Source of the DNA: a virus
Length of the DNA: 42,839 bases
Reading direction: 5' to 3' (one strand)
Virus record (IMG/VR): IMGVR_UViG_3300040758_000113
The notes beneath the pieces are model-generated. The model was not told the DNA's origin. It saw nothing but the letters and a program-made list of their open reading frames with translations, and did not search any database. The position numbers and the translations under genes are program-made. This document shows positions 7,279 to 41,947 of this stretch, in pieces (the stretch's first letter is position 1; every line of letters starts with the position of its first letter).

Positions 7279-7341
7279 GGTCACCTACCTATGAATATTA
7301 CCGGATTTGGGGTCCTTCAACCATGCGCCCGGAAGTTTTCT

Positions 7342-8496
7342 TTATCTCATTGAGTTCAGCACCTTAAAGTAGATGGAGCCGGTCATTGGCTTTTTCTCAA
7401 GCTTTTCTGGGGTTTCTGGTTTGGCCGGTTCGGACTTTTCTTCCTTTTTTACCGGCTTCTGGGCAAACCGGCACCAGTCGTCGGCGTCCACCTCAATGGT
7501 GCCGTCCGGGAGCTTTTTTTCTTGTAGCTCCGGGTCTACCATGACCACGGGATGCTTACAGGAGTCTACTTCTACCCCCTCGGCATTCTTGGAGTGGGGT
7601 GTCCTGTGGCGGCAGTCCATGCAGGTCGCTGGGCCGTCATGCCAGAAACCTGAAAGCTTTGACCCTGCCATGTCATATTCTGTCCCTTTTATTTTCTCCA
7701 AAAGTCCCTCTGTCTTGTTCAAACTACCCATTTTATTCTCCTTGTGTGTAGATTTCCATTCACGGAGCCAAACATCATCCTTGGTCCAGCTTGTCACTGT
7801 CCCCCGTATAGGCAGATAATTCTTCAACTGACGCTTGATGATATCTTCGGGGTCGATTATGTTCGACCGATAAGTCATAGCAAAACGATTCTCCTCATCC
7901 AAAACCTGTACCGTCCACATAGCATGAGGTTCACCCCGACGTAACTTCTTAGGGTTTAAGGGTAAAATGTATATCTCAACTCCTTGCTCCTCGAATGCAA
8001 CTTCCCCAGTATCAAACTTTTTAAGTGTTGCTGTCTTTTTCCTGTCCTCATCCCCTTCTTGATGCTCCTCCACTTTAGTGCGGAGAGAACCAAGGTCTGT
8101 CTCAAACACGTCCCCCAGCCTTTCTTCTTCCCATCCTTTAGGGTAGTGGACAAGATACGCCTGCTGAGCATGTTCTAATGTATCAAATCCCAGCATCACT
8201 TTAAATTCATCCGGGGTCTCCCCATTAGCCTTCAATTGTTCTACTATATAAACTTTATCAGAGTGAGGGTAGGGGCCTATATAGCAGTCCAATCCTTCAT
8301 CATCTTTACCATTTACACCGATAAAATGCCCATAATCGAAGTGCATTTTCCTTCGCCACGTCTTGCCGTCTTCATCAGTACCGACACGCTCCAACCCCGC
8401 TGGCCACTCAATCAGAATGGGCATACCCCGAAATTCGGTAGTATGCATCTGCGAAAGCTTGGCTTGAATTAATTTCTTTTCAGATTCCATGAGCAA
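7342..8496 (-). CDS. Hypothetical protein with C-terminal Cys/His cluster
   Basis: 384-aa ORF packed tightly with its neighbours. C-terminus CMDCRHRTPH...CKHP suggests zinc binding. No confident family assignment. Confidence 0.45.
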   Translation of the reverse strand: MLMESEKKLIQAKLSQMHTTEFRGMPILIEWPAGLERVGTDEDGKTWRRKMHFDYGHFIGVNGKDDEGLDCYIGPYPHSDKVYIVEQLKANGETPDEFKVMLGFDTLEHAQQAYLVHYPKGWEEERLGDVFETDLGSLRTKVEEHQEGDEDRKKTATLKKFDTGEVAFEEQGVEIYILPLNPKKLRRGEPHAMWTVQVLDEENRFAMTYRSNIIDPEDIIKRQLKNYLPIRGTVTSWTKDDVWLREWKSTHKENKMGSLNKTEGLLEKIKGTEYDMAGSKLSGFWHDGPATCMDCRHRTPHSKNAEGVEVDSCKHPVVMVDPELQEKKLPDGTIEVDADDWCRFAQKPVKKEEKSEPAKPETPEKLEKKPMTGSIYFKVLNSMR

Positions 8497-8550
8497 CTTG
8501 CGGTAAACGGGTATTAAATGATTACCGAACTCCTTATTAGAGGATTCCCA

Positions 8551-9675
8551 ATGAAGGAACTCATAGACATATTTATAGAACGATATCCGATGGTTGACCG
8601 AGACGCCTTTTGGGCATACTTAGACCACATCCAAAAGTCAAAACTACCAGAAAGAGAAAAAGGAAACTGGCACCACATCCTCCCTAAATCTATGTTCCCG
8701 GAATACAAGAGTAGAGTCGGTCATCCGTGGAATTCAGTTAAAATAAGCCCATTTGACCACTTCAAGGCTCACTACCTTTTATTCAGGGCCGTCAAATGCC
8801 AAGCTACCGCCTATGCATGGAAAATGATGAGCAAAATGGGAAAGATTAAAATAGAAGACGAATATCTTCAAGAGTACGAAAGGGCGGTTAGTGTGGTTAA
8901 GGACCAGTGCGGTAAAACAATGAGAGGAAAGGTTGCCGCAAAGGATAAAAATGGGGATATATACCATGTAGAAACAAATGACCCCCGCCTTAAAGACGGT
9001 AGCCTAACGCACTTTGCGAGATACACGGTCAATGTTAAAGACTCTCTCGGAAACCGCTTCAAAGTAAGAAAAGATGACCCTCGATATTTGTCCGGGGAGT
9101 TAGTGCATGTACGAAAGGGCAGAATAACAACGAAGGACAAGGCTGGGATTGTGATTGATACCACCTGTGATGACCCACGGCTGATAACCGGGGAACTCAC
9201 CCATGTAAACAAAGGATATGTTCTAACAATAGATAAAGATGGTGTCTACAAACGAGTAAGAGTGACAGACCCGGCGTACCAAAATGGGGACTTGATTCAT
9301 GCCCGTACCGGATATTCGCCAGATGGTAGCCCGGTATCGCCAAACATAAAATCCCGCCTTTGTCCCCAATGTAAAAAAAGACTAATCTATAAGAATAAGT
9401 ACCACTGTAAAATAGCTGATAAGACTAACGGGCTGTGTGGTAGTTGTGCGGCAAAGAATAGATGTGCCCCCTTATATACTAAAACGGAACGCCACTGCCC
9501 GGTTTGTGGTGTTTCTTTGCACTATAAATATGCTTGGTTATGCAAACAAATGGAGGAGCGGGGGAGCGTTTGCAGAAAATGTTCTTCTATGGCAAGGGCT
9601 AAACGCTTACGATGGCCCCAGACTAGATGGGACCACCAAATTAGTGGTATTATAAATCAAAAAGAAGAACAATAA
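8551..9675 (+). CDS. HNH-type endonuclease with four tandem DPRxxxGxLxH repeats and a Cys-rich C-terminal zinc-ribbon region
   Basis: NWHHILPKSMFPE...WNSVKISPFDHFKAH (HNH-like). Repeats: DPRLKDGSLTH / DPRYLSGELVH / DPRLITGELTH / DPAYQNGDLIH. C-terminus has CPQC...CGSC...CPVCG...CRKC. Start moved to the ATG at 8551 (GAGGA RBS) instead of the track's 8518. Confidence 0.55.
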   Translation: MKELIDIFIERYPMVDRDAFWAYLDHIQKSKLPEREKGNWHHILPKSMFPEYKSRVGHPWNSVKISPFDHFKAHYLLFRAVKCQATAYAWKMMSKMGKIKIEDEYLQEYERAVSVVKDQCGKTMRGKVAAKDKNGDIYHVETNDPRLKDGSLTHFARYTVNVKDSLGNRFKVRKDDPRYLSGELVHVRKGRITTKDKAGIVIDTTCDDPRLITGELTHVNKGYVLTIDKDGVYKRVRVTDPAYQNGDLIHARTGYSPDGSPVSPNIKSRLCPQCKKRLIYKNKYHCKIADKTNGLCGSCAAKNRCAPLYTKTERHCPVCGVSLHYKYAWLCKQMEERGSVCRKCSSMARAKRLRWPQTRWDHQISGIINQKEEQ

Positions 9676-9822
9676 GAATCGGGAAATTGTAGTATTAGAC
9701 ATCATGCGCAGAGAATGCTCCATCAAGGGGATGTAACGGCGAGTGCATGGAATGTACCCAAAACGCCAACTATCACCCCCATCAGTAGTGATAACGCCAA
9801 CAAACACCGCCACAGGAGGATT

Positions 9823-11094
9823 ATGAGTGCAGAGAAGCCTACGAGGGAAGATTTTATTCTGGAGGCGCAGAGGCTATCCAACAATGGAAGCCAGCCAGTT
9901 AGTCGTGATTTCTTTCGTAACAACAGCCCACTTAAGGACCGATGGGCTGCGTATTTCCCCACCTTCGAGGCCCTTCTTGATGCAGCCAACATAAAGCACG
10001 CCCGCAAGGTTGCCCAACCCGCCGTCAAAGCCGCCAAAGTTGCTCCACCCCCGGAAGAGCCGAGGGAAGTATATCTGCGCCGGGACAACAGCCGTCTCAG
10101 AAACGAAGTCAGGAAAGCACATGAGGAGCAGGGCTACTGGCAAGAGATGACCGACGCCATTGTGGACGCCATCACTGGCTTGGACCCGTTACCGCCCGTG
10201 GAGTTTGAATCACCCATGGGTGCGGGCAGCGACATGGCTGCGTGCATCAAACTCTCCGACTGGCATATTGGGGAAATCATCAAGCCCGAGGAGACCGAGG
10301 GATTCGGTATTTACAACTGGGATATAGCACAGGAACGTATGAAGTACATTGCGCAGAAGTTCCTCGGCTGGGTGGATACACACCGAACTACCTTCAACAT
10401 CCCCAACCTGTATGTCTTCGGAGAAGGTGACTGGGTATCCGGCGACATCCACGAAGAACTCCGCCGCACGAATGAGTTCCCCCTCCCCGTACAGGCAACG
10501 CAAGCGGGCAAACTGCTTGCACAGACCGTCTCCACTTTCGCTCCCCATTTCGACAAGATAACCCTTGTGGAGATTGGGGCGGACAACCACGGACGGCTGT
10601 TACAGAAGCCGCAATCCAAGCAGAAGTCCAGCAACTCCATGAGCCACGTGGTGTACGAAATCGCCAATGCCTATCTCCAGAATCACGAGAACATTGACAT
10701 CGTCACTACCGAGGGCATGAAGCATGTGGTCGATATGGTGGGTGTGAAGTTCCTCATCGAACACGGCGACACCGTAAAGGCATGGATGGGCATTCCCTTC
10801 TATGGCCTCGAACGTGAGCGGGGCCGGGAAGCCATCAAGCGGATGCAGGCAATGCTGGATGCTTGGCGGCAGGAAATGGAAGACATGGCGAAGCTCGGCT
10901 TCGACTATATCTCCTGTGGTCACTGGCATGTCCCCGGTATTGTATCCGGCAACATTCTCATCAACGGAAGTCTCAGCGGCACATCGGAATTTGACCACGG
11001 CTGTGGACGGCACGCCCGCCCATCGCAGGTCAGCTTCCTTGTTCACCCGGAACACAAGCTGTTCGATTGGGTCGCTTGGACGCCGCCCATGTAA
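9823..11094 (+). CDS. Calcineurin-like metallophosphoesterase (Mre11/SbcD-type fold) with N-terminal extension
   Basis: Phosphoesterase motifs LSDWHIG (D-x-H), GEGDWVSGDIH, IGADNHG (GNH), EHGD, CGHWHVPG (GHxH). Strong RBS ACAGGAGGATT-ATG at 9823. The track ORF begins at 9715 but has no RBS there. The N-terminal ~90 aa (…NNSPLKDRWAAYFPTFEALLDAANI) resemble the homing-endonuclease-associated DNA-binding repeat. Confidence 0.65.
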   Translation: MSAEKPTREDFILEAQRLSNNGSQPVSRDFFRNNSPLKDRWAAYFPTFEALLDAANIKHARKVAQPAVKAAKVAPPPEEPREVYLRRDNSRLRNEVRKAHEEQGYWQEMTDAIVDAITGLDPLPPVEFESPMGAGSDMAACIKLSDWHIGEIIKPEETEGFGIYNWDIAQERMKYIAQKFLGWVDTHRTTFNIPNLYVFGEGDWVSGDIHEELRRTNEFPLPVQATQAGKLLAQTVSTFAPHFDKITLVEIGADNHGRLLQKPQSKQKSSNSMSHVVYEIANAYLQNHENIDIVTTEGMKHVVDMVGVKFLIEHGDTVKAWMGIPFYGLERERGREAIKRMQAMLDAWRQEMEDMAKLGFDYISCGHWHVPGIVSGNILINGSLSGTSEFDHGCGRHARPSQVSFLVHPEHKLFDWVAWTPPM

Positions 11095-11153
11095 TTATGT
11101 TTTTCAAAAAGGCTCAAGTGGACATTCATCCATCTAGTTATGGGTTACATATA

Positions 11154-11204
11154 CCCGCTTAGGTGAAGAGGGATAATACCAGTTCTCCTCTTCACCTAAG
11201 CGGG
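11154..11204. terminator. Perfect 18-bp inverted repeat hairpin (15-nt loop) between convergent genes; candidate bidirectional terminator
   Basis: cccgcttaggtgaagagg (11154-11171) pairs with cctcttcacctaagcggg (11187-11204). It lies between the + gene ending at 11094 and the - gene ending at 11196. U-tracts are weak. Confidence 0.45.
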
Positions 11205-12020
11205 AGTAAATGTATAGGGGTGGTGTTCTCTCATTGCCTTTATGAGTTGTCCAATTTCTACCCACTGTTCATATGTAAACCGGTTTGATTTTCCGCAATT
11301 GCATTTAGGGCAGCACGGAACCAAGTTATCTTTTCGATATCCAATTGAAGAGTCTTTCCTATCAAGGTTTGTCCTATTGTTCGCCCCACATCCCTTATGG
11401 GATAAAGCATTCCAAATTAGGGGTTCATCACAATAGTGGCATGTTTTAGATTCGGTTATAGTAACAAGTTCCTCATAAGTTAATCCCTCCCATTTTTTAC
11501 TTCTACGAATTTGCGCTATCATCCACTCAAGGGGCCGTTTCTGACGACCTAAAGATTGAAGATGCCGCCCGCAAAGGTAACAACCGCTGTTCCTGTCTTT
11601 CCTTATACGAATCCAAGACTTCACTCCATGAATGCGGCATCGTGCGTGCCAAAGATATGCCTTACCTCGTTGCTGTTGGATAGTTTTAGGAGGTTCATCC
11701 AAAATTTCCCAAGGACACTCTGGGGGTAACGGCTGAATCCTCATATCAATAAGCTGCCTTTGAGACATCCGCTTACCCCAGCATCGTCTACAACCTAGTG
11801 TTCTACCAGAACGTAAATTCAACCCCACAATCCAGCGTTTAACCCCACACCCAGAACACTGACAATACCACTTATACGGCTTACCCCTCTTCCCTCCACC
11901 TTGAGGTGAATCACTTAAAACAATCCATATACAATCTTGGGGCAATAACTCTGGTCTATTTCTCATATCTATAAATTTGTGCATTCGTTGTATATTCCTC
12001 CCATTACTAATATATTCCAT
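11196..12020 (-). CDS. HNH endonuclease with N-terminal tandem zinc-ribbon (CxCxxCG...GCxxC) repeats
   Basis: C-terminus CHYCDEPL...NLDRKDSSIGYRKDNLVPCCPKCNCGKSN (HNH). Repeats WYCQCSGCGVKRW...LGCRRCWG and LWHARCRIHGVKSW...GCYLCG. Confidence 0.65.
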   Translation of the reverse strand: MEYISNGRNIQRMHKFIDMRNRPELLPQDCIWIVLSDSPQGGGKRGKPYKWYCQCSGCGVKRWIVGLNLRSGRTLGCRRCWGKRMSQRQLIDMRIQPLPPECPWEILDEPPKTIQQQRGKAYLWHARCRIHGVKSWIRIRKDRNSGCYLCGRHLQSLGRQKRPLEWMIAQIRRSKKWEGLTYEELVTITESKTCHYCDEPLIWNALSHKGCGANNRTNLDRKDSSIGYRKDNLVPCCPKCNCGKSNRFTYEQWVEIGQLIKAMREHHPYTFTPA

Positions 12021-12039: not shown

Positions 12040-12495
12040 ATGGCTAAAGAAAGAGGAATGTCACATAGTTGGGAAGATTTTCCAAAACGTAAAGATGAAT
12101 TAGGGTTTAACCTTTGCCGCTTCTGCGGCAAAGCTCTAACCGGTCGCCGGACCTCATGGTGCAGCAAACAATGCACCATCGAAGTCCTCCTCCTCTGCGA
12201 CTGGTCATTCATCCGCAACAAAGTAAAGCGCCGGGACAAGTACCGCTGTGTCCTCTGTCATCGCAATAAGCATGAGGCGGGTTCGCTGGAAGTTGACCAT
12301 ATCGTGGAGTTGCAAGACGGTGGGCAGACAGTGATGGAGAACTTACGAACAATGTGTTTAGAGTCTCATAAAGTTAAGACCAAACTCATGAAAACGGCAA
12401 GGTTTGAAAGACGGGTGGTTCTTTCACAAAAGGAATTATCCACCCTTCCATGCATTTCAAAAAAATGGGCAGGGCTTCCGGTCTTAAGCATTTGA
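12040..12495 (+). CDS. HNH endonuclease (small, McrA/HNH_5-like)
   Basis: CRFCGKAL...YRCVLCHRNKHEAGSLEVDHIVELQDGGQTVMENLRTMCLESHKVKT. ATG at 12040 chosen; the track ORF starts at 11977 inside the convergent gene's end. Confidence 0.6.
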   Translation: MAKERGMSHSWEDFPKRKDELGFNLCRFCGKALTGRRTSWCSKQCTIEVLLLCDWSFIRNKVKRRDKYRCVLCHRNKHEAGSLEVDHIVELQDGGQTVMENLRTMCLESHKVKTKLMKTARFERRVVLSQKELSTLPCISKKWAGLPVLSI

Positions 12496-13039
12496 AAAAC
12501 CCAATCATACCACCCCTCAAACGATTACACTTATTACATGAAATAACTAGATTTTCTGGACTATTATCCTCTTTAATTTCATTTAAGTGGTCACCCACAA
12601 TATCCTTCCATTCAAGAGTATTTCCACACCAAAAACAGGGGTGAACGCCGGGACCATACCTATCGTATAAAACTTTTCTGTGTTCTAAAACGTATCCCGC
12701 ACTAATCGCTAAAGGATGCTGAGGGAGGATTAGTCTTACATACCCATCTTTCTTGACGGCACGAAACTTAACTCCTTGTCTAACCACACTGCCCGTTCTT
12801 CTTTGTTGATAATAACAAGCCTCACATAGACCGTAGGTGGGGCGGTCAACCAGCTTACCACAATTTGGTGTATTACAAACTAACGCTCTTTTAATTTTTC
12901 TTCTGGATTTTAAGGTAGACTTTTCATACTCGGTTCTACACTTAACAGAGCAATATTTGCGGTCTGTACCCCTACCAACTTGGTAAGAAAACTCTCTTCC
13001 ACAAATACAGGTACGAAATCTCTCCGTTAGTTTATCCAT
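12386..13039 (-). CDS. HNH endonuclease (HNH_3-like) with N-terminal Cys-rich region
   Basis: GYVLEHRKVLYDRYG...CFWCGNTLEW...HLNEIKEDNSPENLVISCNKCN. The 3' end overlaps the convergent + HNH gene by ~110 nt. Confidence 0.6.
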   Translation of the reverse strand: MDKLTERFRTCICGREFSYQVGRGTDRKYCSVKCRTEYEKSTLKSRRKIKRALVCNTPNCGKLVDRPTYGLCEACYYQQRRTGSVVRQGVKFRAVKKDGYVRLILPQHPLAISAGYVLEHRKVLYDRYGPGVHPCFWCGNTLEWKDIVGDHLNEIKEDNSPENLVISCNKCNRLRGGMIGFFKCLRPEALPIFLKCMEGWIIPFVKEPPVFQTLPFS

Positions 13040-13156: not shown

Positions 13157-13744
13157 TCAATGTGCATCCCCTTTTTCCTTCTTGATGCGCTTCATTACCT
13201 TCCGGCTGAGGGCATTCAGCCACTTGCAGTCGGCGCACGGGCGAGAGCACTTCCCTTCTCGAACCATGTTCTTTTTGAGCCGATAGTTTCCGTAATGTTT
13301 GAACGTCAAATTGGCAAGCTCGATAAGAGCTTCATCGAAAGTGGGACCGCCGCAGTCAAGCTCCACGTCATGGAAGGGCATCAGGGCGGTACTGGTATCC
13401 CACTCCGACATGTAACCCCACTCCAAGTGACCCAGTTCCAGCCAGCACTCAGGGTTGACATTCTTGGTTCTGTCATCGTTGACTTCACCCTTGTCGTCCA
13501 CGAGCGTGTAGAAGATGCTAAGGTTTTCCTCAATAGCACGATGGAACTCGTGCCGCCATTCCCGCCAGTGCTGACCACCCCTGTCTTTGGTAACGATGAA
13601 TCCCTTCCGCTTGGACCGGGCGGCATCCACAGGAGACTCCGGGGTTCTCACCCGACAGTTAAGTTTAGGATGGTAGTAGAGAAACCACCAAGCCCCAAAA
13701 CCATCTGTTATCTTACGTTTTTCTTGCAATTTTCCCCGTGCCAT
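13157..13744 (-). CDS. Hypothetical protein
   Basis: 195-aa ORF. C-terminus has CSRPCADCKW. No family recognised. Confidence 0.4.
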   Translation of the reverse strand: MARGKLQEKRKITDGFGAWWFLYYHPKLNCRVRTPESPVDAARSKRKGFIVTKDRGGQHWREWRHEFHRAIEENLSIFYTLVDDKGEVNDDRTKNVNPECWLELGHLEWGYMSEWDTSTALMPFHDVELDCGGPTFDEALIELANLTFKHYGNYRLKKNMVREGKCSRPCADCKWLNALSRKVMKRIKKEKGDAH

Positions 13745-14439: not shown

Positions 14440-14564
14440 TCATAACTCCCCACATAGGGAAATCATATTGGTTCTTTTATAAACACCCATTTAATTATCG
14501 GACCTATGAAGCAAAGAAAATATTACGTTTTGGCTTATTTATAATACTGAGTTTTATGGGAAAT

Positions 14565-17033: not shown

Positions 17034-17071
17034 TTGATGTACATCCCCAAATAAGCAAATGATAATCCATA

Positions 17072-19287: not shown

Positions 19288-19366
19288 ACAACCTCCACTG
19301 TATAAATACCAAAAAATAACGGAAATAATCGGTCACATTGAGGTATACTGTAAGTGGAGGGAAAAC

Positions 19367-23691: not shown

Positions 23692-23710
23692 CCTCCACAG
23701 TATAATACTG
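23692..23710 (-). promoter_or_regulatory. AGTATTATA box abutting the Shine-Dalgarno of gene 22504-23688 (candidate phage promoter -10-like element)
   Basis: Minus strand reads cagtattatactgtGGAGGaccATG. The same architecture recurs at 26109-26126, 36661-36678, 41213-41234, 7288-7302 and 19299-19312 on the minus strand, and at 9688-9700 and 19341-19358 on the plus strand. Confidence 0.3.
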
Positions 23711-26108: not shown

Positions 26109-26126
26109 CCTCCTTTGTATAATACT
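26109..26126 (-). promoter_or_regulatory. AGTATTATA box + SD upstream of gene 25626-26102
   Basis: Minus strand: gcagtattatacaaAGGAGGccagtcATG. Confidence 0.3.
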
Positions 26127-35661: not shown

Positions 35662-35678
35662 GCTCTATATAGTACTCC

Positions 35679-36359
35679 TTAAATTACCTTTCCATCGGCG
35701 ATTGCCGTCAACTCTTCCTTGCCCAGCACTTCGGCAAGCCCTACCGTGGCTTGCAAGTGCAACTCCTGTGGGTCTACCTCATCGCTCCTCTCCGCATCCT
35801 TGGCGCTCTTTTCCAGCGTCAACCCAGTGAAGTAGATGCGGATGTAGTCTTCGGCAAGCTCCGCATCCTTGGTTTCCTGAACATCTCGTTGCGCCTTCAA
35901 AATAAAGTGCTCCGCAAGGTCCCAGAAGCTTAAAACACCACCCTCTTCTTCCTCGTCGTCAACCAGCATATTAGGTATGGAGGGAAGGTTGAAGGTTTTT
36001 TCCAGCCAGTAAAGAGCCTGCACCCGGCTGAGTTCCATATACTTGGATACAAAGGTTACATTGTCATACAACATGCTGCCGGGCGGACATCCAAAGCAAT
36101 AAGCGTCATTGGTGCGGGAATAGAGGGTAAAAGACGGCGTGCGGTCACGACCATGAAAGGGGCAGCGGATGACCGTATCACGATGACCGGTAAGCTCCGC
36201 TACGACATCCTGAAACGGGATTTCGTTGTTGGCTCGTTCCCACCGGTCAGGATTGATGCCCCCATATGAGCTACGATAGAAGTTTTGAACGGCATCCCGC
36301 TCAAGACTAACCTCCTGCCCGACAAGCTCTTCGATTGCCGGAAGCTGTTCATTTTCCAT
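35679..36359 (-). CDS. DnaG-type CHC2 zinc-finger protein (primase zinc-binding domain, stand-alone)
   Basis: CPFHGRDRTPSFTLYSRTNDAYCFGCPPGS matches CPFHxExTPSF...CFGCG. No TOPRIM domain in this ORF. Confidence 0.55.
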   Translation of the reverse strand: MENEQLPAIEELVGQEVSLERDAVQNFYRSSYGGINPDRWERANNEIPFQDVVAELTGHRDTVIRCPFHGRDRTPSFTLYSRTNDAYCFGCPPGSMLYDNVTFVSKYMELSRVQALYWLEKTFNLPSIPNMLVDDEEEEGGVLSFWDLAEHFILKAQRDVQETKDAELAEDYIRIYFTGLTLEKSAKDAERSDEVDPQELHLQATVGLAEVLGKEELTAIADGKVI

Positions 36360-36655
36360 TACTGTGCCTGTTGAAATTGTTCGTAGTCTTTGAGCAAAGA
36401 CTCACCGTTCTCAAGGGAGGCCATGAGGCTACTCAGGTTCTTTTCCAACTCCAACTGGGTATCCTCGGCGAGCTTCTTAAGCTCCTCCACCGACAGACGC
36501 TCGGGGTTGCTGATGTTAAGTGCCCGGAGGTTATCATGGACCTGCTTGAGCTTCTGCTCCTCAACCCCCACTTCCCGGTTAAGCTGGTCTCGTTTGCCTG
36601 CCAAGGTTTTCACTCTTGCTTGAGCAGTGCGCAACTGTTCTTGGATGTCGGGCAT
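36359..36655 (-). CDS. Hypothetical coiled-coil protein
   Basis: 98 aa, heptad-rich. TAATG overlap with the downstream zinc-finger gene. AGTATTATAgtgAGGAGG element upstream. Confidence 0.4.
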   Translation of the reverse strand: MPDIQEQLRTAQARVKTLAGKRDQLNREVGVEEQKLKQVHDNLRALNISNPERLSVEELKKLAEDTQLELEKNLSSLMASLENGESLLKDYEQFQQAQ

Positions 36656-36660: not shown

Positions 36661-36678
36661 CCTCCTCACTATAATACT
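36661..36678 (-). promoter_or_regulatory. AGTATTATA box + SD upstream of gene 36359-36655
   Basis: Minus strand: ttagtattatagtgAGGAGGattacATG. Confidence 0.3.
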
Positions 36679-36694: not shown

Positions 36695-37351
36695 TTAAGG
36701 TCTAATCCACTCAAATTTGAGTATATTCAACAGTCGAATTTGATGGGGGGTGGGGTCAATATCATCTTCGCATAAAAAGGTCCCCCAGCATGTACCATCG
36801 CATAACTTCCAAAGGTCTTGGCGAGAACCCCGATGAAACATCAGGGCCAGCCTAAAGGAGATGTGACGTGAAGCATCCTCCTTACGATAACTGAAATCTG
36901 CAAGAAAATACTTCCCCTTTGGGACATCCTCCGTAAGGACAGTGTATGCATTCAAACCATCAAGAGAGAAACTAAACTGAAAGAGCGCCGGGGAGTCTTT
37001 CCGTCTGTCAAATATGGAAACTGTGTTGTGTTTGAAGCAAGGGTGACCGTTGTGCATCACCCACGGATTGTCGCTCCGCTTTTCATCTCTAATTTCCACA
37101 TCCCCCGTCACCCACTTACCCTCGGGATGACGTGGTCCTAGATAAACCTGAACATCGCCAAGTCCAACTTCACGGAGTTTTTTTGCCCAGATTTCCCGTT
37201 GGGACAGGAATTCAATTAAGGCAGATTTTCCGGGGTTATCATATGCATCATAATCCTTATCCCGAAAATCAGCGCCCTCAAGTTTTCCCATATCTACCTC
37301 GATTCCGGTTGACAAGACGGGCAGCATAGCTCCGTACCACAGTCCGGGCAT
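36695..37351 (-). CDS. Hypothetical protein
   Basis: 218-aa ORF. No ATPase signature motif seen. Confidence 0.4.
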   Translation of the reverse strand: MPGLWYGAMLPVLSTGIEVDMGKLEGADFRDKDYDAYDNPGKSALIEFLSQREIWAKKLREVGLGDVQVYLGPRHPEGKWVTGDVEIRDEKRSDNPWVMHNGHPCFKHNTVSIFDRRKDSPALFQFSFSLDGLNAYTVLTEDVPKGKYFLADFSYRKEDASRHISFRLALMFHRGSRQDLWKLCDGTCWGTFLCEDDIDPTPHQIRLLNILKFEWIRP

Positions 37352-39564
37352 TTCGGTTTGGATTCCTTGGACAGAAGCAACGTCAAAGAGTTAACCTTGG
37401 CGTTAGCGGCGTCCAGTTCCTCTTCCGTAAACTTAAGCTCACTCTTCTTGCTGGGGAGCTTCAATGCCTCTGCCAACAAGTTGATGTTCTTAAGCGCCGA
37501 GAGGTAGTGAGCAATGACTCCGAGTAGGAAGTTGGCTTCTTGTAGCACACCCTCTAACTTCTCCCCGCACTCCTTGGGGCTTGCTCCCTTTCTTTCGACA
37601 ATTTCCAACAGGGATAGAACCGCCTGCTTGCGTTTGTACCCCTTAGCCACAAGGTCCCACTGGACTATAGTATTGTCAATGCCATGTACCACCTGTCCCG
37701 TGACTTCCCGGCGACGGAGGATTTTTACCGCCTCGGCATACATCCGGGCGAGGCGCTCCTGTTTCTCAATGGGGGATACATCCGGCACAGACAGCTTGAG
37801 GATGAAGGACCGCATCTTCGCTATCCGATTCGTCCTTGTAAGTGTCTCGGTCAGCGAGGCCAACAATGACTCATAGCTGTTGACCTTTGCCTCATAACCA
37901 GACACGGTGTGGGCGGAGTCCTGTGCCGAGGCATTAAACCTCTCAAGTTTACCCCGGCGTTCCTCTGCCTCACGGATTTCTTCGGCGAGCGTTCGGGCTT
38001 CCCCGTTCTTTTCGGTAATGCGCCGGTTGGCTTCCTTCTTCCCTGCATCCAATTTTTCGGTAGAGGCAAAGGCCCCAAGGATGGCATTCAGGTCGTTGGG
38101 CTTCCATGCGTCGGGGTCAATGAGGAATTGTGCCTTGTTCTGTTGAGAAAAGATGGGGTCTATGGTTGTGTCCCCCACTTTGACGGTGCCATACTTGAGC
38201 ACCTTCATGGGTTCGGGGACACTATCGCCGAGAGCCTTATACTCTATCGGCTTACCCTTTTCATCTTCACCAATGGCGTACTTGGTGGAACCCTTGCGGG
38301 TCCGGGTGGCCCTGATGGGGTCGTTGACACCCTCAACCTCAAGAGTCACTTCCATCTTCTCATCCTGTCCATTACGGACAAAATCCTGCGGGAGTTCATT
38401 GCGGAATACCCCCCGCAGGGCACGGAAGATGGAGCTATTATGAGTTATAGTAAAATCACCAAGAAGAAAAAGCCCATCCCCGCTCAACTCAAATCCGAAA
38501 TATTCTCCCCACCCTTTATGCTTTATTTTAAACCCCGTTGTTAAACAAGATTTTTTGGATTGCGATAATGCCTTTTTTCGCTTTATGATAGTAGGAATAC
38601 TAGGCAAATTCCCGAAAATTAAAACCGTATGGTATATCTTATTGTATCGTTTGTTTAACTTAGGAGAAATAGATGCCCTAAACCCGAGAGACCTCGCTAA
38701 AAATGCCACTTGTTTAGCAAGTCGCTCAAACTGCGAACAAAAGGCAAATTGAGACGGTTCTAATCCAGCATCAGAATCTAGCAACCCAGCCAATAGTAAA
38801 AGTCTATCTTCCCTTGAGCCAACCAGATAGCTATGTGGTATGCATTTTCCGTCTGCATCCACCAACTTTAACAACCGGAAACGGTTAAGAAGGGCATTAC
38901 TTCGACTTCCTTTATGTTTAGTAGAAAATCGGTAGGAATCATCATCATTGGGTATAAGATGGAGACCATACTTGGTGGCAAGTTTTCGACAATAGTTTAC
39001 AACCTCAAGGTCGGCGGTTGTTACTTCTAATTTATGTAAATCGGTGGTACCATCGCCAAGCCAATAGCCCACCAAATAAGGTTCAAATTTTTTATCTACC
39101 CGGCACTTAAAATCTATACCTCCCGAACGATGCAAACGGGCATTCCGTTTATAGGTAGCACTTTTGGAAAGAAAGTCCTTAACTGAAATCTCCACCCTGC
39201 ATTGTCTTAACTGTAAGGGACTGAGACGACGTTTTTTTCCATCTAATCGGCAAATCAAGGACAAAATGTGATACTGATTACACCCCCAAGAACCATCGAA
39301 GCCCCCTTTATTGGGCAAAACCTCATACATATCATCAAACCCGTGGGAAATACTAAGAACGGTGCGAGGCGTGCTATCCGGCCCCATAAGAAAGTCACCT
39401 ACACCTATGTTCTTTGCTAATTTATTTGTCCCGTCATACATAAGAACAGGAGTATTTGGAGCAAGACACTTACCCTTATTCGACGGTCCGACAATCAATG
39501 TCAACCCGTCCACAATAAGGGAGAAATCTTTCCATGGTTGAAAATTCTTACCGGATAGTTTCAT
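37294..39564 (-). CDS. SbcC/Rad50-like P-loop ATPase (N-terminal ATPase lobe + coiled coil ending in CxxC...CxxC), interrupted by an intein in the Walker A motif
   Basis: Spliced N-terminus would read MKLSGKNFQPWKDFSLIVDGLTLIVGPSNKGK|SSIFRALRGVF, the canonical Rad50/SbcC start with GxNGxGKSSI. Long coiled-coil. Ends KCPDCGTELCCPSCQ. Confidence 0.65.
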   Translation of the reverse strand: MKLSGKNFQPWKDFSLIVDGLTLIVGPSNKGKCLAPNTPVLMYDGTNKLAKNIGVGDFLMGPDSTPRTVLSISHGFDDMYEVLPNKGGFDGSWGCNQYHILSLICRLDGKKRRLSPLQLRQCRVEISVKDFLSKSATYKRNARLHRSGGIDFKCRVDKKFEPYLVGYWLGDGTTDLHKLEVTTADLEVVNYCRKLATKYGLHLIPNDDDSYRFSTKHKGSRSNALLNRFRLLKLVDADGKCIPHSYLVGSREDRLLLLAGLLDSDAGLEPSQFAFCSQFERLAKQVAFLARSLGFRASISPKLNKRYNKIYHTVLIFGNLPSIPTIIKRKKALSQSKKSCLTTGFKIKHKGWGEYFGFELSGDGLFLLGDFTITHNSSIFRALRGVFRNELPQDFVRNGQDEKMEVTLEVEGVNDPIRATRTRKGSTKYAIGEDEKGKPIEYKALGDSVPEPMKVLKYGTVKVGDTTIDPIFSQQNKAQFLIDPDAWKPNDLNAILGAFASTEKLDAGKKEANRRITEKNGEARTLAEEIREAEERRGKLERFNASAQDSAHTVSGYEAKVNSYESLLASLTETLTRTNRIAKMRSFILKLSVPDVSPIEKQERLARMYAEAVKILRRREVTGQVVHGIDNTIVQWDLVAKGYKRKQAVLSLLEIVERKGASPKECGEKLEGVLQEANFLLGVIAHYLSALKNINLLAEALKLPSKKSELKFTEEELDAANAKVNSLTLLLSKESKPKCPDCGTELCCPSCQPESR
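38437..39468 (-). mobile_element. Intein (344 aa) with LAGLIDADG homing-endonuclease domain, inserted after the Walker-A Lys
   Basis: N-terminal splice junction GK|CLAPNTPVLMYDG (Cys1). LAGLIDADG blocks LVGYWLGDGT and LAGLLDSDAG. C-terminal FTITHN|S (His-Asn plus +1 Ser). Boundaries checked codon by codon: 39468 = Cys1, 38437-38439 = terminal Asn. Confidence 0.7.
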
Positions 39565-39866
39565 TTGTAAATAACCTTGATGTTATGAACGACAACCCAA
39601 ATGTAAACTGCTATCAGGATAGAAAGTGTGATATCCACCCCTGGGGCACCCCTCACACCGACAATGAAAATCCCAGCCGCAATGGTGCTTAAGGCTAAGA
39701 CCTTCACCACAATAATTCCAGGAATACTGCCGATTTTACACATCAACCAAGATGCAATGGGGTTTACCTCCTCATTTTCCGTTTTCTTAAGTCCCATATA
39801 GGTAGTTATCCCATCAGAGATATTAAGAACTACAAGGACCAAAAACAGTAAAATAAAAAGAGCCAC
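39561..39866 (-). CDS. Small membrane protein (3 predicted TM helices)
   Basis: MALFILLFLVLVVL..., ...GIIVVKVLALSTIAAGIFIVGV..., ...ITLSILIAVYIWVVV. Conserved-looking DGITTYMGLK...E.NPI segment. ATGA overlap with the Rad50-like gene. Confidence 0.45.
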   Translation of the reverse strand: MALFILLFLVLVVLNISDGITTYMGLKKTENEEVNPIASWLMCKIGSIPGIIVVKVLALSTIAAGIFIVGVRGAPGVDITLSILIAVYIWVVVHNIKVIYK

Positions 39867-39872
39867 GCCACC

Positions 39873-41210
39873 TCACTTAAGTTCGTCTATCTCTGTTACT
39901 GCATTTTCAAGAGATTCTGCGGTGGGGACTTCACCAAAATCTTCCTCATCGGGGTAGCTCCCCGCTGGCTCTTCGAGGAATGCCTTTTCCGCTTCACTGA
40001 GACCTTCACCCTTGAAGCGCTCGGTTTCATCGTGCTCCACGGCATCCAAAACCATGCCCTTGAGCTTCCCGAGAACCTCCGGGTTTTGCTTGATAACGAG
40101 GTCTTCGACAAGCTCTGTTTTGCTGGCATAGGTGATGATGGCGTCGTCGGCGGACTTGCCGACAAACCACTTCTTTTTGTCGTACTCAATGAAGCCATAC
40201 CCGCAGGCAAGCTCCCGGATGCTCATGTTCTCGTCAATGCCGAAGTTGGGCCTGACGTAGACGAAGGCTTCCCGGTAGCCGCCGCCCGTCACCTTGTTCT
40301 TGAGGGAGCGAACCCGGACCTTGTTAGCGGTCGGGTAGTTTTTGAGCACTTCACCCATGGGCTGGATGAGAAGCCACTGTTCTTTTTTGTCCGGCATCTT
40401 ATCCCAACTCCACGGCTTGATTTCCGTTTCCAGAATGAGTTCCAGCATCACGCTGGGAGCAAACCTCGCCATATATCCGCCCGGCAGGCTGTATTCCCGG
40501 TTAGTGTAACTCCAGTGGGAAGCGTTCTCCGCATCGTCGTCCATACGGGCACGAGTCTGGTTAATGATGGTCAGGTGGGCATCCTGCTCCATAAGGTGAG
40601 GAGTGAGAAACTTGTAGAACGTGGTGATGCCCTTAGCATGGCTTCCGTAGTTAGCCCGGAATGCTTTGCCGCTTTCAATATCCTTAAGCTCCACCTTCAT
40701 CTGCATGAACGGGATGGAGTCATCCACGAAGTAGCGGATACCATATTTGGTGAGAAGCTGAATATGCCGCTTGATGGACTCTTGCAAGTTGGACGGCTGC
40801 TCGAAGAAACAGAGGTCGGGGTCAACACCGAGAGCGTAAGCGTACTGGGCGCTAATGGCCGGTTCGTACTCGAAGATAGCGATGGGTTCACCGGTTGCTT
40901 GCTGGTAATTGGCGGCGTTTACAAAGGCAGTGGTGGTCTTGCCAGCGCCCTCATTGCCGTGTATCTGCGTAATGCGTCCGCCTCGGGCGATACCGCCGAG
41001 CCGTAGAACCTTGTCAAAGACGAAGTGACCATAGGGAACAAGGATTTCCTGAAAGTCCTTGCCGTAGATACGATGGTCGGACTTCGTATCCTTGCGCAAG
41101 TAAGCAAGGGCATTACGCCGCTGTTCCACCGTCCAAGTCCGGGGACTGCCAGTCGGCATTTCAAAATTGAGTTCCTTTTCCTTCTTCTTCTTTGCGGCTG
41201 CCTTTGCCAT
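39873..41210 (-). CDS. RecA/UvsX-family recombinase
   Basis: GGIARGGRITQIHGNEGAGKTTTAF (RecA Walker A/L1 region). 445 aa with an extended acidic C-terminus. Confidence 0.75.
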   Translation of the reverse strand: MAKAAAKKKKEKELNFEMPTGSPRTWTVEQRRNALAYLRKDTKSDHRIYGKDFQEILVPYGHFVFDKVLRLGGIARGGRITQIHGNEGAGKTTTAFVNAANYQQATGEPIAIFEYEPAISAQYAYALGVDPDLCFFEQPSNLQESIKRHIQLLTKYGIRYFVDDSIPFMQMKVELKDIESGKAFRANYGSHAKGITTFYKFLTPHLMEQDAHLTIINQTRARMDDDAENASHWSYTNREYSLPGGYMARFAPSVMLELILETEIKPWSWDKMPDKKEQWLLIQPMGEVLKNYPTANKVRVRSLKNKVTGGGYREAFVYVRPNFGIDENMSIRELACGYGFIEYDKKKWFVGKSADDAIITYASKTELVEDLVIKQNPEVLGKLKGMVLDAVEHDETERFKGEGLSEAEKAFLEEPAGSYPDEEDFGEVPTAESLENAVTEIDELK

Positions 41211-41947
41211 TATTCCTCCTGTGATAGAATACTGAGATGAACTGCCATTTTTCTTATATGATTCAAAAACTCTTCATAGGAAAGTTGTTGTTTTGCCCAA
41301 TTACATATACGACAACAAGGAACTACATTGCCCGGAATATATCCCTTATGGATATCTTTCCTATCAATCCCATTGTAGGGCAGCTTTCCATTATTGTAAA
41401 GACGACGGGTAACCGCTTCATTGCTGGGGGGTGCTCCACAATAATGGCAGGGTTGAAAAATTAAACTCAAGAATAATTCTTTCTCTAGCCCCCATTTCAA
41501 TCCCCTAGACTTAGCACTGGTCTTATACTCACGGTATACCCGTCCACTCAGAAACTCTTTGGGTTCTAAAAGATTGGCATAGCGCCGACACCCACAACTA
41601 GTAGTGCGGGATAAATTATTGGTACTTACAGGTAAAATCTTTCCACAAACACACAGGCACTTCCAAAAAACCCGGTTTTTTTCAACATGGTCTAGTTCTT
41701 GTACCTCCAAAAAACCAAACCTTTTACCGGAAAGGTCTTTGAAATTCCATGCTTTTCTGGTGGGAAAAGGTACACACCCGCAACTCCCAGTTTTCTTTTG
41801 AGTAAGATTGGAACCGTATACCGGTTTCTCAGTTCCACATCTACATCGGCATTGATAAACTCCCCGACCTTTGTAAGATATGACAAACCACAACCCAAAT
41901 GTTTTCCCAACCAAATGACGGGCCTTAGATTTGGTACTCACACACAT
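41210..41947 (-). CDS. HNH endonuclease with zinc-ribbon repeats (paralog of 11196-12020 / 16446-17033)
   Basis: CHYCGAPP...YNGIDRKDIHKGYIPGNVVPCCRICNWAKQQ. Repeats YQCRCRCGTEK...CGCV and WKCLCVCGKI...CGCRR. The track start at 41974 overlaps the RuvC gene by 50 nt, so the ATG at 41947 is preferred. Start uncertain. Confidence 0.55.
   Translation of the reverse strand: MCVSTKSKARHLVGKTFGLWFVISYKGRGVYQCRCRCGTEKPVYGSNLTQKKTGSCGCVPFPTRKAWNFKDLSGKRFGFLEVQELDHVEKNRVFWKCLCVCGKILPVSTNNLSRTTSCGCRRYANLLEPKEFLSGRVYREYKTSAKSRGLKWGLEKELFLSLIFQPCHYCGAPPSNEAVTRRLYNNGKLPYNGIDRKDIHKGYIPGNVVPCCRICNWAKQQLSYEEFLNHIRKMAVHLSILSQEE
41213..41234 (-). promoter_or_regulatory. AGTATTCTA variant box + SD upstream of recA/uvsX-like gene
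   Basis: Minus strand: tcagtattctatcacAGGAGGaataATG. Confidence 0.3.

What the first reader, a model, noticed from the sequence alone, without database searches (positions are those of the whole stretch)
7288..41234. Recurrent AGTATTATA-like box fused to the Shine-Dalgarno of at least eight genes
Read on the coding strand, eight gene starts show the same layout. Minus-strand genes: cagtattatactgtGGAGGaccATG (22504-23688); gcagtattatacaaAGGAGGccagtcATG (25626-26102); ttagtattatagtgAGGAGGattacATG (36359-36655); tcagtattctatcacAGGAGGaataATG (39873-41210); ggtaatattcatAGGTAGGtgaccATG (7003-7278); gtatttatacagtGGAGGttgtATG (18907-19287). Plus-strand genes: aggtatactgtaagtGGAGGGaaaacATG (19367-) and tgtagtattagacatc upstream of 9823. 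The -10-like box (TATTATA/TATACT) sits only ~4-9 nt from the SD, implying very short leaders or a phage-specific promoter or processing signal.
Basis: seen in the sequence. Interest (0 to 1): 0.55.

Follow-up and report, generated by a model that had tools for sequence, protein, structure and literature searches.

The report
Phage promoter box abutting gene starts
A nine-base box (AGTATTATA) that sits exactly four bases ahead of the ribosome-binding site or the start codon of replication genes in this giant soil phage is most likely a phage-style promoter that starts each messenger RNA right at its translation signal; it is real and conserved across a phage clade, and it is a variant of known promoter designs.

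Summary
The box is real. AGTATTATA (up to 1 mismatch) followed by exactly 4 nt and then ATG, GTG or (A)GGAGG occurs 5 times in the window, against 0.14 in dinucleotide shuffles (maximum 1 of 300). After the Shine-Dalgarno hexamers, its 6-mers are the most enriched words upstream of genes. Three are loose variants. One lies 124 nt from its gene. I add DNA polymerase (35668) and 14540.

Related genomes keep the same geometry. In the adjacent DNA of the same genome and in 73%-identity relatives, the box is followed by 4 nt and then ATG or GTG, with no SD. In the cultured jumbo phage Tunturi_5, GGTATTAG occurs 38 times (about 6 expected). It is always sense to local genes, has a purine at +13 in 34 of 38 sites, lies at divergent junctions and precedes tRNA genes.

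There is no conserved -35, no RNA structure and no Rfam match.

Best reading (about 0.75): a -35-independent, -10-type promoter (TATTAT core). Its start site, 5 nt past the box, gives leaderless mRNAs or mRNAs that begin at the SD. It drives replication and recombination genes. The start sites and the sigma factor are inferred, not shown. Novelty: a new variant of a known kind. Interest is moderate.

The parts
23701..23709 (-). Box AGTATTATA. Then 4 nt, GGAGG (23692-23696) and ATG (23686-23688) of the 394-aa NusG-KOW-like gene (homolog of Tunturi_5 gp25). Predicted transcription start at G 23696.
   Evidence: The ortholog in HEG-less relative L005 keeps a box variant (cagtatttatctaatGGAGGaccATG) although the upstream flank is unrelated. 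Homology to gp25.
26118..26126 (-). Box AGTATTATA. Then caaa, GGAGG (26109-26113) and ATG 26100-26102 of a 158-aa gene just upstream of the clamp-loader gene. Predicted start at G 26113.
   Evidence: Identical in L004-L006.
36670..36678 (-). Box AGTATTATA. Then gtga, GGAGG (36661-36665) and ATG 36653-36655 of a 98-aa gene that heads the primase-like/DNA-polymerase block. Predicted start at G 36665.
   Evidence: Orthologous sites: L002 cAGTATTATAgtgaGGAGG and L157 AGTATTAGGatagGGAGAcaaaaATGCC.
41225..41233 (-). Box variant AGTATTCTA, lying inside the last codons of HNH endonuclease gene 41210-41974. Then tcac, AGGAGG (41215-41220) and the ATG of uvsX (41208-41210). Predicted start at A 41220.
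   Evidence: HEG-less relatives L001/L002 have only a degenerate box here (agaatatctaatctgacGGAGG), and homology resumes at the SD.
35668..35676 (-). Box variant AGTACTATA, 6 nt before the ATG (35659-35661) of DNA polymerase, with no SD. This is leaderless or 2-nt-leader geometry.
   Evidence: Relatives: L003 AGTATTGTAggatATG and L157/L166 aAGTATTTATAaagtATG. The box also lies upstream of pol in L153, L159 and L167.
14540..14548 (-). Exact box AGTATTATA. Predicted start at A 14535, with a leader of about 96 nt to homing-endonuclease gene 13708-14439. In relatives without this cassette the same box is followed by ggacATG of a leaderless gene.
9691..9699 (+). Box AGTATTAGA, then catc and ATG (9704) of a 10-codon ORF. 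The exonuclease gene proper starts at 9823 behind its own AGGAGG. A second box-like GGTATTATA lies at 9646-9654.
19301..19309 (-). One-base-insertion variant GTATTTATA, then cagt, GGAGG (19292-19296) and ATG 19285-19287. It is one arm of a divergent promoter region.
   Evidence: The same variant stands at the L005 ortholog of site 23701 and at the L157 DNA polymerase.
19342..19350 (+). Variant GGTATACTG (TATACT core), then taagt, GGAGGG (19356-19361) and ATG 19367. It is the other arm of the divergent region 19288-19366.
7294..7302 (-). Weak candidate GGTAATATT (3 mismatches, TAATAT core), then cata, GGTAGG and ATG 7276-7278.
   Evidence: Geometry fits, sequence match is poor, and there is no comparative support.

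Best explanation
The box is the -10-type core of a -35-independent promoter class used by this clade of jumbo phages. The consensus in the window lineage is A-G-T-A-T-T-A-T-A, with TATTAT as the TANNNT hexamer.

RNA polymerase holoenzyme melts the DNA at the box and starts at the purine 5 nt past the 9-mer, 13 nt from its first base. The genes are laid out so that this first transcribed base is one of two things. Either it is the first base of the Shine-Dalgarno sequence, giving mRNAs that begin 5'-(A)GGAGG with leaders of 8-12 nt. Or it is the A/G of the start codon itself, giving leaderless mRNAs without an SD.

In the window the box drives replication, recombination and transcription-factor genes: uvsX, DNA polymerase, the primase block, the gene ahead of the clamp loader, and a NusG-like gene. 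This points to an early or middle class.

Shown: the recurrence, strand bias, fixed geometry, absence of an SD in the leaderless set, and conservation across lineages.

Inferred: that it is a promoter, the exact start site, the temporal class, and the sigma factor (a host primary sigma used in an extended-box mode, or a phage-encoded sigma).
For: 1. Enrichment and position.
- Composite box-N4-signal occurs 5 times in the window, against 0.137 in shuffles.
- 8 of 13 GTATTA copies lie in the 5.5% of the window that is non-coding.
- The box 6-mers rank just after the SD 6-mers in an unbiased test.

2. Fixed geometry in 16 aligned sites from the window, its own genome (L136) and relatives (L002, L003). 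Each has exactly 4 nt and then a purine. That purine begins ATG, GTG, (A)GGAGG or GAGGAG in 14 of 16. The composite is found at 3 of 4 box hits in L136 and 4 of 4 in L003.

3. Leaderless set without an SD.
- L136 4809: AGTATTATTccttATG, which equals the called gene start.
- L136 3911 with orthologs L003 6333 and L002 6317. All three keep AGTATTATC-N4-ATG while the four spacer bases differ (cagt, cggc, tggt), and the N-terminal peptide ..FRPGI.. is conserved.
- DNA polymerase in three lineages.
- L005: AGTATTATTggacATG.

4. The core is TANNNT, at the distance from the start codon reported for leaderless genes (PMC3160421).

5. The distant cultured relative Tunturi_5.
- GGTATTAG occurs 38 times, against 5.9 expected.
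- It is always co-oriented with local genes.
- There is a purine at +13 in 34 of 38 sites.
- At exactly +13 there is a start codon (11-12 sites) or an SD-like run (about 13 sites).
- It lies at divergent junctions where a promoter must exist. gp48 starts at 44490, which is box 44477 + 13. gp313 starts at 256523, which is box 256510 + 13.
- It precedes tRNA-Thr and tRNA-Arg.
- In L147 a tRNA-Met starts at box +12/13.

6. There is no RNA structure around the window boxes and no Rfam family.

7. The box is kept when flanks are replaced by homing-endonuclease cassettes.

8. No gene-start boxes occur in the 8 kb beyond the window's left end, so the box is class-specific rather than general.
Against: - No 5' ends are mapped, so the start site is inferred from geometry only.
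- The hexamer-to-start gap would be 5 nt, one shorter than the commonest sigma-70 spacing.
- Tunturi_5's invariant TATTAG lacks the usually essential final T of a sigma-70 -10 element.
- No -35 is present (mean best match 2.31 against 2.37 at random positions). The AG abutting the hexamer is not the classical TGn extended -10. How a holoenzyme would recognise the box is therefore open.
- No sigma or RNA polymerase gene was found in the window. The called genes of adjacent loci carry no sigma or RNA polymerase Pfam label. A search with Tunturi_5's ECF-like sigma gp211 returned only 9 hits, none traced to the window lineage.
- An mRNA that begins exactly at the SD is an unusual substrate for SD-led initiation.
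- The uvsX box is not conserved in HEG-less relatives.
Confidence: 0.75

Rival explanations
1. RNA processing signal. An endoribonuclease recognises AGUAUUAUA in polycistronic transcripts and cuts a few bases downstream, releasing mRNAs that begin at the SD or the AUG.
For: Most box-bearing genes follow co-oriented genes without an obvious terminator. The motif is A/U-rich, like many RNase E-type sites. A fixed distance to the functional 5' end would also fit a ruler-type cut. Boxes between tRNA genes in Tunturi_5 could be processing sites.
Against: In Tunturi_5 the box stands at divergent junctions, where no upstream transcript on that strand is expected, and there the start codon is exactly at +13. 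The core matches a -10 element at -10 distance. There is no conserved RNA structure. Some relatives add a canonical -35 at 16-17 nt, for example L161 TTGACA-17-TATTAT.
Confidence: 0.1
2. Translational operator. A phage RNA-binding repressor (RegA-like) binds the box next to the SD or AUG and shuts off translation of replication genes.
For: The gene set (uvsX, DNA polymerase, clamp-loader neighbourhood) resembles the T4 RegA regulon (PMC3014915). The box abuts the ribosome-binding site.
Against: Related boxes precede tRNA genes. Some boxes lie 91-124 nt from the next real ORF (14540 and 9691). The constant distance is to the purine at +13, not to the start codon: the SD-to-ATG gap varies from 3 to 6 nt. 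No RegA-like hit appeared in PHROGs or Pfam scans of window proteins. A dual role (promoter in DNA plus operator in read-through RNA) is not excluded.
Confidence: 0.05
3. Antisense sigma-70 promoter. The reverse complement TATAATACT contains a perfect TATAAT, so the functional element could fire on the opposite strand.
For: The consensus scan lists CTGCCA-16-TATAAT on the + strand at 26096-26123.
Against: All exact boxes are on the gene-sense strand. Conserved variants destroy the antisense TATAAT (AGTATTGTA, AGTATTCTA, and Tunturi_5 GGTATTAG giving CTAATACC). The conserved geometry is on the sense side. Promoter-like sigma-70 matches in the region are not above the shuffle level (11 against 14.3).
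Confidence: 0.03
4. Recombination linker or cassette junction (PeSL-like). The box is kept mainly because it serves as a short homology patch at which gene cassettes, including homing-endonuclease genes, are swapped.
For: Three homology breakpoints between the window and close relatives fall at a box or at its SD: 14541, 23697 and 41219. PeSLs of T4-type phages are promoter-containing linkers with SD and ATG at their 3' end (PMC2839356, PMC4122927).
Against: Cassette breakpoints fall in intergenic DNA anyway, and about one intergenic gap in five carries a box, so 3 of about 20 is close to expectation (my estimate). A 9-bp patch is short for homologous exchange. No stem-loop accompanies the window boxes. 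This reading complements rather than replaces the promoter reading.
Confidence: 0.05
5. Chance. AT-rich words happen to lie in AT-rich intergenic DNA.
For: Total hits with up to 1 mismatch (11) are only about 2.6-3 sd above shuffles, and 3 of 100 shuffles reached 11.
Against: The composite geometry gives 5 against 0.137. The box is conserved in relatives with 60% G+C, where the flanks diverge. In Tunturi_5 it occurs 38 times against 5.9 expected.
Confidence: 0.02

Closest known systems
T4 late promoters (TATAAATA, gp55/gp33/gp45) and the gene e / soc / 49 / I-TevI arrangement
   Same: [quoted passage not shown] In Tunturi_5 many boxes lie in the loop of a hairpin whose 5' arm (CCTCC-like) pairs with the downstream SD. 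Only box-initiated transcripts would then have a free SD, which is the logic of T4 gene e.
   Different: The sequence differs (AGTATTATA or GGTATTAG, not TATAAATA). The genes served are replication and recombination genes, not late structural genes. No gp55, gp33 or RegA homolog was detected in the window. The window boxes have no hairpin. The start is predicted at the very first base of the SD or AUG.
Leaderless-gene promoters (TANNNT about 12 bp before the start codon) of Actinobacteria and Deinococcus-Thermus
   Same: A TANNNT hexamer lies 10-12 nt before ATG/GTG with no SD (PMC3160421). Window DNA polymerase, L136 3911/4809, L005 and the L003 sites fit this pattern.
   Different: Here the same box at the same distance also serves SD-led genes and, in relatives, tRNA genes. 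The conserved word is longer (9 bp, with invariant RG before the hexamer). The hexamer-to-start gap is 5 nt. The host phylum is probably Acidobacteriota, judged only from the relationship to Tunturi_5.
PeSL / PmSL composite promoter-stem-loop cassettes of T4-type phages
   Same: Both are repeated intergenic regulatory cassettes ending in SD + ATG. The stem-loop often overlaps the -10 box, and the cassettes are linked to indels between close relatives. PmSLs of nt-1 have a TATTAT -10 (PMC4122927, PMC2839356). Tunturi_5 elements (a conserved unit of about 55 bp, half with strong hairpins) resemble them.
   Different: The window boxes lack both the -35 (or Mot box) and the stem-loop. Only the 9-mer is conserved.
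Virion-RNAP early promoters of phiKZ-like jumbo phages (e.g. AR9 AAATATATATTAT-N6-G+1)
   Same: Both have a highly conserved AT-rich word ending in TATTAT, a start at a fixed purine a few bases downstream, and no -35 (PMC5312081).
   Different: Those phages encode multisubunit RNA polymerases, and their leaders are 26-491 nt with no leaderless transcripts. No such polymerase is annotated in Tunturi_5 or seen in the window.
Extended -10 (TGnTATAAT) promoters
   Same: They function without a -35 through extra contacts just upstream of the hexamer.
   Different: The conserved upstream bases are A/G-G directly abutting the hexamer (G at -13 in hexamer numbering), not T-15 G-14.

Membership tests
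Sigma-70-family promoter (-10 element) | Hexamer TANNNT (A at position 2, T at position 6) | tested here: met
   TATTAT, TATTCT, TACTAT and TATTGT in 15 of the 16 window-lineage sites aligned (AGTATTAAA in L002 has TATTAA; 9691 has TATTAG). Tunturi_5's invariant TATTAG does not meet it.
Sigma-70-family promoter (-10 element) | -35 hexamer TTGACA-like, 16-18 bp upstream | tested here: not met
   Mean best match is 2.31 of 6 (window lineage) and 2.21 (Tunturi_5), against 2.37 at random positions. Only a few relatives have one, for example L161 541.
Sigma-70-family promoter (-10 element) | Primary transcript start at a purine 5-8 nt after the hexamer | not testable with these tools
   The geometry is compatible: purine at box +13 in 16 of 16 sites and 34 of 38. 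No 5'-end data exist.
Extended -10 promoter | TG at -15/-14, one base before the hexamer | tested here: not met
   The conserved bases are A/G-G immediately adjacent to TATTAT.
T4-type late promoter | Box TATAAATA | tested here: not met
   The consensus is AGTATTATA.
T4-type late promoter | [quoted passage not shown] | tested here: met
T4-type late promoter | gp55-type sigma and gp33 encoded by the phage; late (structural) genes served | tested here: not met
   No such hit in PHROGs or Pfam scans of window proteins. The genes served are replication and recombination genes. The rest of the 338-kb genome was not seen.
Leaderless-mRNA promoter | -10 box about 10-12 nt before the start codon, and no SD | tested here: met
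   Window DNA polymerase (35668), L136 3911 and 4809, L005 20362, L003 6333, 7138 and 13677, and L157 pol.
PeSL (promoter + stem-loop cassette) | Stable stem-loop within or next to the promoter | tested here: not met
   Folding energies of the window sites equal those of shuffles. The feature is met in about half of the Tunturi_5 sites.
PeSL (promoter + stem-loop cassette) | Association with indel or cassette junctions between close relatives | tested here: inconclusive
   Three junctions lie at boxes, but this is near the expectation for intergenic breakpoints.
RegA-type translational operator | RNA site overlapping the SD/AUG of protein-coding genes only; RegA encoded | tested here: not met
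   Boxes occur before tRNA genes and 91-124 nt from ORFs. No RegA hit was found.
phiKZ-like virion-RNAP early promoter | Phage-encoded multisubunit RNA polymerase | tested here: inconclusive
   None in the window and none annotated in Tunturi_5. Several very large Tunturi_5 proteins carry doubtful labels and were not analysed.

The most novel reading that the evidence does not exclude
A clade of soil jumbo phages (probably infecting Acidobacteriota; genomes of 230-460 kb, including the cultured Tunturi_5) uses one -35-less promoter word, RGTATTA(T/G)N. A phage-adapted or phage-encoded sigma reads it. Its start site is placed to the nucleotide on the functional 5' end of the product: the A of AUG (leaderless mRNA), the first G of the SD (mRNA with a 5'-terminal SD), or base +1 of a tRNA. 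In Tunturi_5 an anti-SD arm upstream of the box silences read-through copies. Promoter choice would then decide directly whether a gene can be translated.
Probability: 0.35. Interest if true: 0.6.

Novelty: new variant of a known kind. Interest (0 to 1): 0.45.

Why it matters
If the inferred start sites are right, this gives a ready-made promoter model for a large, almost unstudied group of soil jumbo phages. One member (Tunturi_5) is in culture with its Acidobacteriota host.

The model lets gene starts be re-annotated. Several leaderless starts are missed or misplaced by gene callers, for example L136 3911 and possibly Tunturi_5 gp225.

It points to a regulon of replication and recombination genes. 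It also offers a natural system for asking how ribosomes use mRNAs that begin exactly at the Shine-Dalgarno sequence, compared with leaderless mRNAs made from the same promoter type.

For synthetic biology in Acidobacteriota it would provide a compact 9-bp promoter.

If the start sites are wrong, it is still a conserved cis-element that marks the replication module of these phages.

Tried and rejected
It was useless for collecting family members.

2. Megablast of 10 kb against INPHARED phages found no match. The only useful named relative, Tunturi_5, came from a tblastn search with UvsX.

3. I looked for the trans factor.
- ORFs 36695-37351 and 36359-36655 are syntenic with the Tunturi_5 'sigma factor' gp3. 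They show no similarity to it and have no Pfam domain.
- gp3 itself has no Pfam or PDB match.
- The search with the genuine ECF-like sigma gp211 gave 9 hits, none traced to the window lineage.
- The 158-aa protein has only weak Nudix (E = 0.003) and sigma region-4 (E = 0.16) matches.
- The 394-aa protein has a weak NusG-KOW match (E = 0.19).
- None of this identifies the factor.

4. A conserved -35, Mot box or UP-like element upstream of the box: none found.

5. RNA hairpins around the window boxes: none beyond the shuffle level.

6. I tested whether the box is simply the host's general promoter. Tunturi_3, an unrelated phage of the same host species, has GGTATTAG once and GTATTA 21 times, with no positional pattern. 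This is weak evidence against a generic host signal, but Tunturi_3 may use other promoters.

7. Sequence variants upstream of uvsX in six population contigs were all identical in the last 90 nt, so they were uninformative.

8. The idea that homing-endonuclease cassettes generally carry a box at their 3' end holds for only 2 of about 10 cassettes.

Full report
**What the window is.** The 42.8-kb window is part of a large phage genome. Genes lie almost entirely on the minus strand. PHROGs and Pfam scans identify:
- UvsX (39873-41210)
- a terminase-like gene with an intein (37294-39564)
- a primase-like gene (35679-36359)
- a family-A DNA polymerase (31966-35661)
- a portal-like gene (28675-30828)
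- a clamp loader (24501-25607)
- an Mre11-like exonuclease (9823-11094, + strand)
- about twelve free-standing homing-endonuclease genes

Nothing in INPHARED matches at the DNA level. The nearest named phage is the 309-kb Tunturiibacter phage Tunturi_5 (UvsX 40% identical). Its gene order terminase, (sigma-like gene), primase, DNA polymerase, portal ... clamp loader, gp25 is syntenic with the window. The exact UvsX protein lies on a 338-kb metagenome contig, ena:ERZ27250039:k141_400892. The window maps across that contig's ends, as expected for a circular or circularly permuted genome.

**The observation.** The four best sites are exactly as quoted. AGTATTATA, or AGTATTCTA at uvsX, is followed by four bases, then (A)GGAGG, then 3-6 bases and ATG. 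The box-to-SD distance is therefore constant, while the SD-to-ATG distance varies.

I also found AGTACTATA 6 nt before the DNA polymerase ATG, with no SD. A further exact box at 14540 lies 91 nt upstream of a homing-endonuclease gene.

The site at 7003-7278 is weak. The box near 9823 is real, but it lies 124 nt from that gene and is followed after 4 nt by the ATG of a 10-codon ORF.

The statistics are as follows:
- The composite box-N4-(ATG|GTG|SD) occurs 5 times, against a mean of 0.137 and a maximum of 1 in 300 dinucleotide shuffles.
- 8 of 13 GTATTA copies lie in the 5.5% of the window that is non-coding.
- In an unbiased 6-mer test of 40-nt upstream regions, ATTATA (5 of its 7 genome-wide copies), TATTAT and GTATTA rank directly after the SD hexamers.

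**Comparative evidence in the same lineage.** Loci from the same genome and from relatives at 90-97% and about 73% identity add sites with the same geometry but no SD. Box, four bases, then ATG or GTG:
- L136 3911: AGTATTATCcagtATG. Orthologs are L003 6333 (cggc) and L002 6317 (tggt), with the conserved N-terminal peptide ..FRPGI..
- L136 4809: AGTATTATTccttATG, which is exactly the called gene start.
- L136 6351: AGTATTATAtctcGTG.
- L003 7138.
- The DNA polymerase of L003 (AGTATTGTAggatATG) and of L157/L166 (aAGTATTTATAaagtATG).

In 16 aligned sites the fifth base after the 9-mer is always a purine. It begins a start codon or an SD in 14 of them. In L003, a 60% G+C genome, all four hits with up to 1 mismatch are on the gene strand and all have the composite geometry.

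Where homing-endonuclease cassettes differ between the window and its relatives, the box is retained while the flanks are replaced. At 23701 the HEG-less relative has cagtatttatctaatGGAGGaccATG behind a completely different upstream sequence. At 14540 the relatives have AGTATTATTggacATG of a leaderless gene where the window has the box followed by a HEG cassette.

**Comparative evidence in distant relatives.** I fetched the whole Tunturi_5 genome.
- GGTATTAG occurs 38 times, against 5.9 in shuffles.
- It is always co-oriented with the local genes. It occurs almost only in replication, nucleotide-metabolism and tRNA regions.
- With the first base of the box as position 0, position 13 is a purine in 34 of 38 sites. 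This is the same distance as in the window.
- At exactly +13 stands ATG or GTG in 11-12 sites, several of them the annotated starts (gp48, gp94, gp145, gp186, gp192, gp210, gp313). An SD-like run stands there in about 13 sites.
- Two of the leaderless cases (gp48, gp313) are at divergent junctions, where a promoter must exist.
- Two boxes precede tRNA genes.

A profile search with DNA polymerase found about twenty further jumbo-phage loci, from contigs of up to about 460 kb, at 41-73% identity. Many carry RGTATTA boxes upstream of the polymerase or other genes. One lies 12-13 nt before the first base of a tRNA-Met. A few have a good -35 at 16-17 bp, for example TTGACA-17-TATTAT in L161. As a class, however, the boxes have no -35.

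**Interpretation.** A 9-bp word with a TANNNT core has these properties:
- It is strand-specific.
- It sits at a fixed distance from a purine that coincides with three different kinds of functional 5' end (AUG, SD, tRNA +1).
- It is present at divergent junctions.
- It lacks RNA structure and matches no Rfam family.

This is best explained as a -10-type promoter whose start site is that purine. The geometry matches what is described for leaderless genes in bacteria (TANNNT about 12 bp before the start codon; PMC3160421). Placing a -35-less box directly on the ribosome-binding site recalls T4 late promoters (PMC3014915).

I put this reading at about 0.75. Which holoenzyme reads the box is open.
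- For a host primary sigma: the TANNNT core and the occasional canonical -35.
- For a phage-adapted or phage-encoded factor: the invariant RG, the invariant final G in Tunturi_5, the absence of a -35, the absence of the motif from Tunturi_3 (an unrelated phage of the same host species), and the presence of a genuine ECF-like sigma (gp211) in Tunturi_5.

I found no sigma in the window, and none is flagged by Pfam among the called genes of the adjacent loci. The gp211 search returned no hit that could be traced to the window lineage.

**Rivals.**
- An RNA-processing signal is not excluded without triphosphate-specific 5' mapping. It does not explain the divergent-junction cases or the -10-like core.
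- A RegA-like translational operator is contradicted by the tRNA-linked and distant boxes.
- An antisense TATAAT promoter is contradicted by strand bias and by the conserved variants.
- A PeSL-like recombination role may be an added property. In the window there is no stem-loop, and the number of junctions at boxes is near expectation.
- Chance is excluded.

**Comparison with what is known, and novelty.** This works like a T4-late-type or leaderless-type promoter. It is not a member of either family by sequence, by factor or by gene class. It also resembles PeSLs and phiKZ/AR9 early promoters in single features.

Three things look new. The first is the consensus itself. The Tunturi paper does not mention promoters, sigma factors or leaderless transcripts. 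The second is its conservation across a clade of soil jumbo phages. The third is the inferred use of one promoter geometry for leaderless mRNAs, mRNAs with a 5'-terminal SD and possibly tRNAs.

I rate it a new variant of a known kind, with moderate interest (0.45). It is directly testable because Tunturi_5 and its host are in culture.

Noticed in passing
window 2762-2768, 6979-6985, 31938-31944 (all -), 19870-19876 and 20604-20610 (+): A second box, YTATARG (e.g. tTCTATAGGgggagaccATG), is fused directly to the SD of four homing-endonuclease genes (2138-2752, 6118-6969, 31501-31929, 19889-20614) and of ORF 20620-20835. TTCTAT, TATAGG and TCTATA are also enriched in upstream regions. It may be a separate promoter class for the endonuclease genes. 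With 0 nt between box and SD the geometry differs from the AGTATTATA class.
   Followed up: partly
window 11145-11205 (box GGTATTATC at 11172-11180, - strand): A box-like word sits in the loop of a perfect 15-bp inverted repeat (-39 kcal/mol) between the convergent genes 9823-11094(+) and 11196-12020(-). It looks like a bidirectional terminator. Position +13 is a T, so it may not fire. It echoes the box-in-hairpin-loop design of Tunturi_5.
   Followed up: partly
Tunturi_5 (L128-L134), e.g. record positions 45408, 62752, 74262, 93664, 218496: About half of the 38 GGTATTAG boxes lie in the loop of a strong hairpin (down to -29.5 kcal/mol). Its 5' arm is CCTCC-like and pairs with the SD that starts at +13. 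The whole unit is a conserved element of about 55 bp (TCAATAWTC..GGAAG.GCCC...atGGGTATTAGc...tR). Read-through RNAs would have the SD sequestered or be terminated, while box-initiated RNAs would not. This is the logic of T4 gene e, soc and I-TevI.
   Followed up: partly
L147 2265-2354; Tunturi_5 240025-240050 and 253388-253410: Boxes precede tRNA genes. In L147 the tRNA-Met begins at box +12/13, so the primary transcript might start at or next to the mature tRNA 5' end.
   Followed up: partly
window 9704-9736 (+): The box at 9691 is followed after 4 nt by the ATG of a 10-codon ORF (MRRECSIKGM*), about 90 nt ahead of the exonuclease gene's own SD. It could be a leaderless upstream mini-ORF, or only the 5' end of a long leader.
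   Followed up: no
window 2138-2752, 6118-6969, 8518-9675, 11196-12020, 12386-13039, 13708-14439, 16446-17117, 19889-20614, 23716-24465, 27665-28255, 31501-31929, 41210-41974: About twelve free-standing HNH/EndoVII/GIY-YIG homing-endonuclease genes lie in 43 kb. Their presence differs between near-identical population variants and relatives.
   Followed up: partly
window 37294-39564 (-), especially 38434-39870: The terminase-like gene carries an intein (Hom_end_hint / LAGLIDADG hits on the 756-aa product). Relatives L001/L002 lack about 1.4 kb here, and L138 has a 397-aa version.
   Followed up: no
window 33886-34012 within DNA polymerase: Relatives L001/L002 (and L146/L160) carry about 460 extra in-frame bases at this point of the polymerase gene. 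This could be an inserted domain or a mini-intein that the window lacks.
   Followed up: no
window 22504-23688 (-): This box-driven 394-aa gene lies downstream of the clamp loader. It is homologous to Tunturi_5 gp25 ('transcription antiterminator', 48% identity). It has a weak match to the NusG KOW domain (E = 0.19) and to PHROG 6386. It may be a phage NusG-like transcription factor.
   Followed up: partly
window 30845-30854 and 39617-39626 (-): The same 10-mer, CTTTCTATCC, lies upstream of the portal-like gene (28675-30828) and of the terminase-like gene (37294-39564). There are only two copies, so it may be chance or a hint of a late-gene signal.
   Followed up: no
Tunturi_5 L127 upstream regions (e.g. 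record genes gp201, gp188, gp182, gp11): A different recurrent word, (T)GTAGGTTGAG, often preceded by TTTCATCTTT about 20 nt upstream, sits close to several Tunturi_5 gene starts. It may be another promoter class of that phage.
   Followed up: no
window 25626-26102 (-): This box-driven 158-aa protein ahead of the clamp loader has weak matches to Nudix hydrolases (residues 15-90, E = 0.003) and to sigma region 4 of RpoS (residues 100-154, E = 0.16). Neither is significant enough to name it.
   Followed up: no
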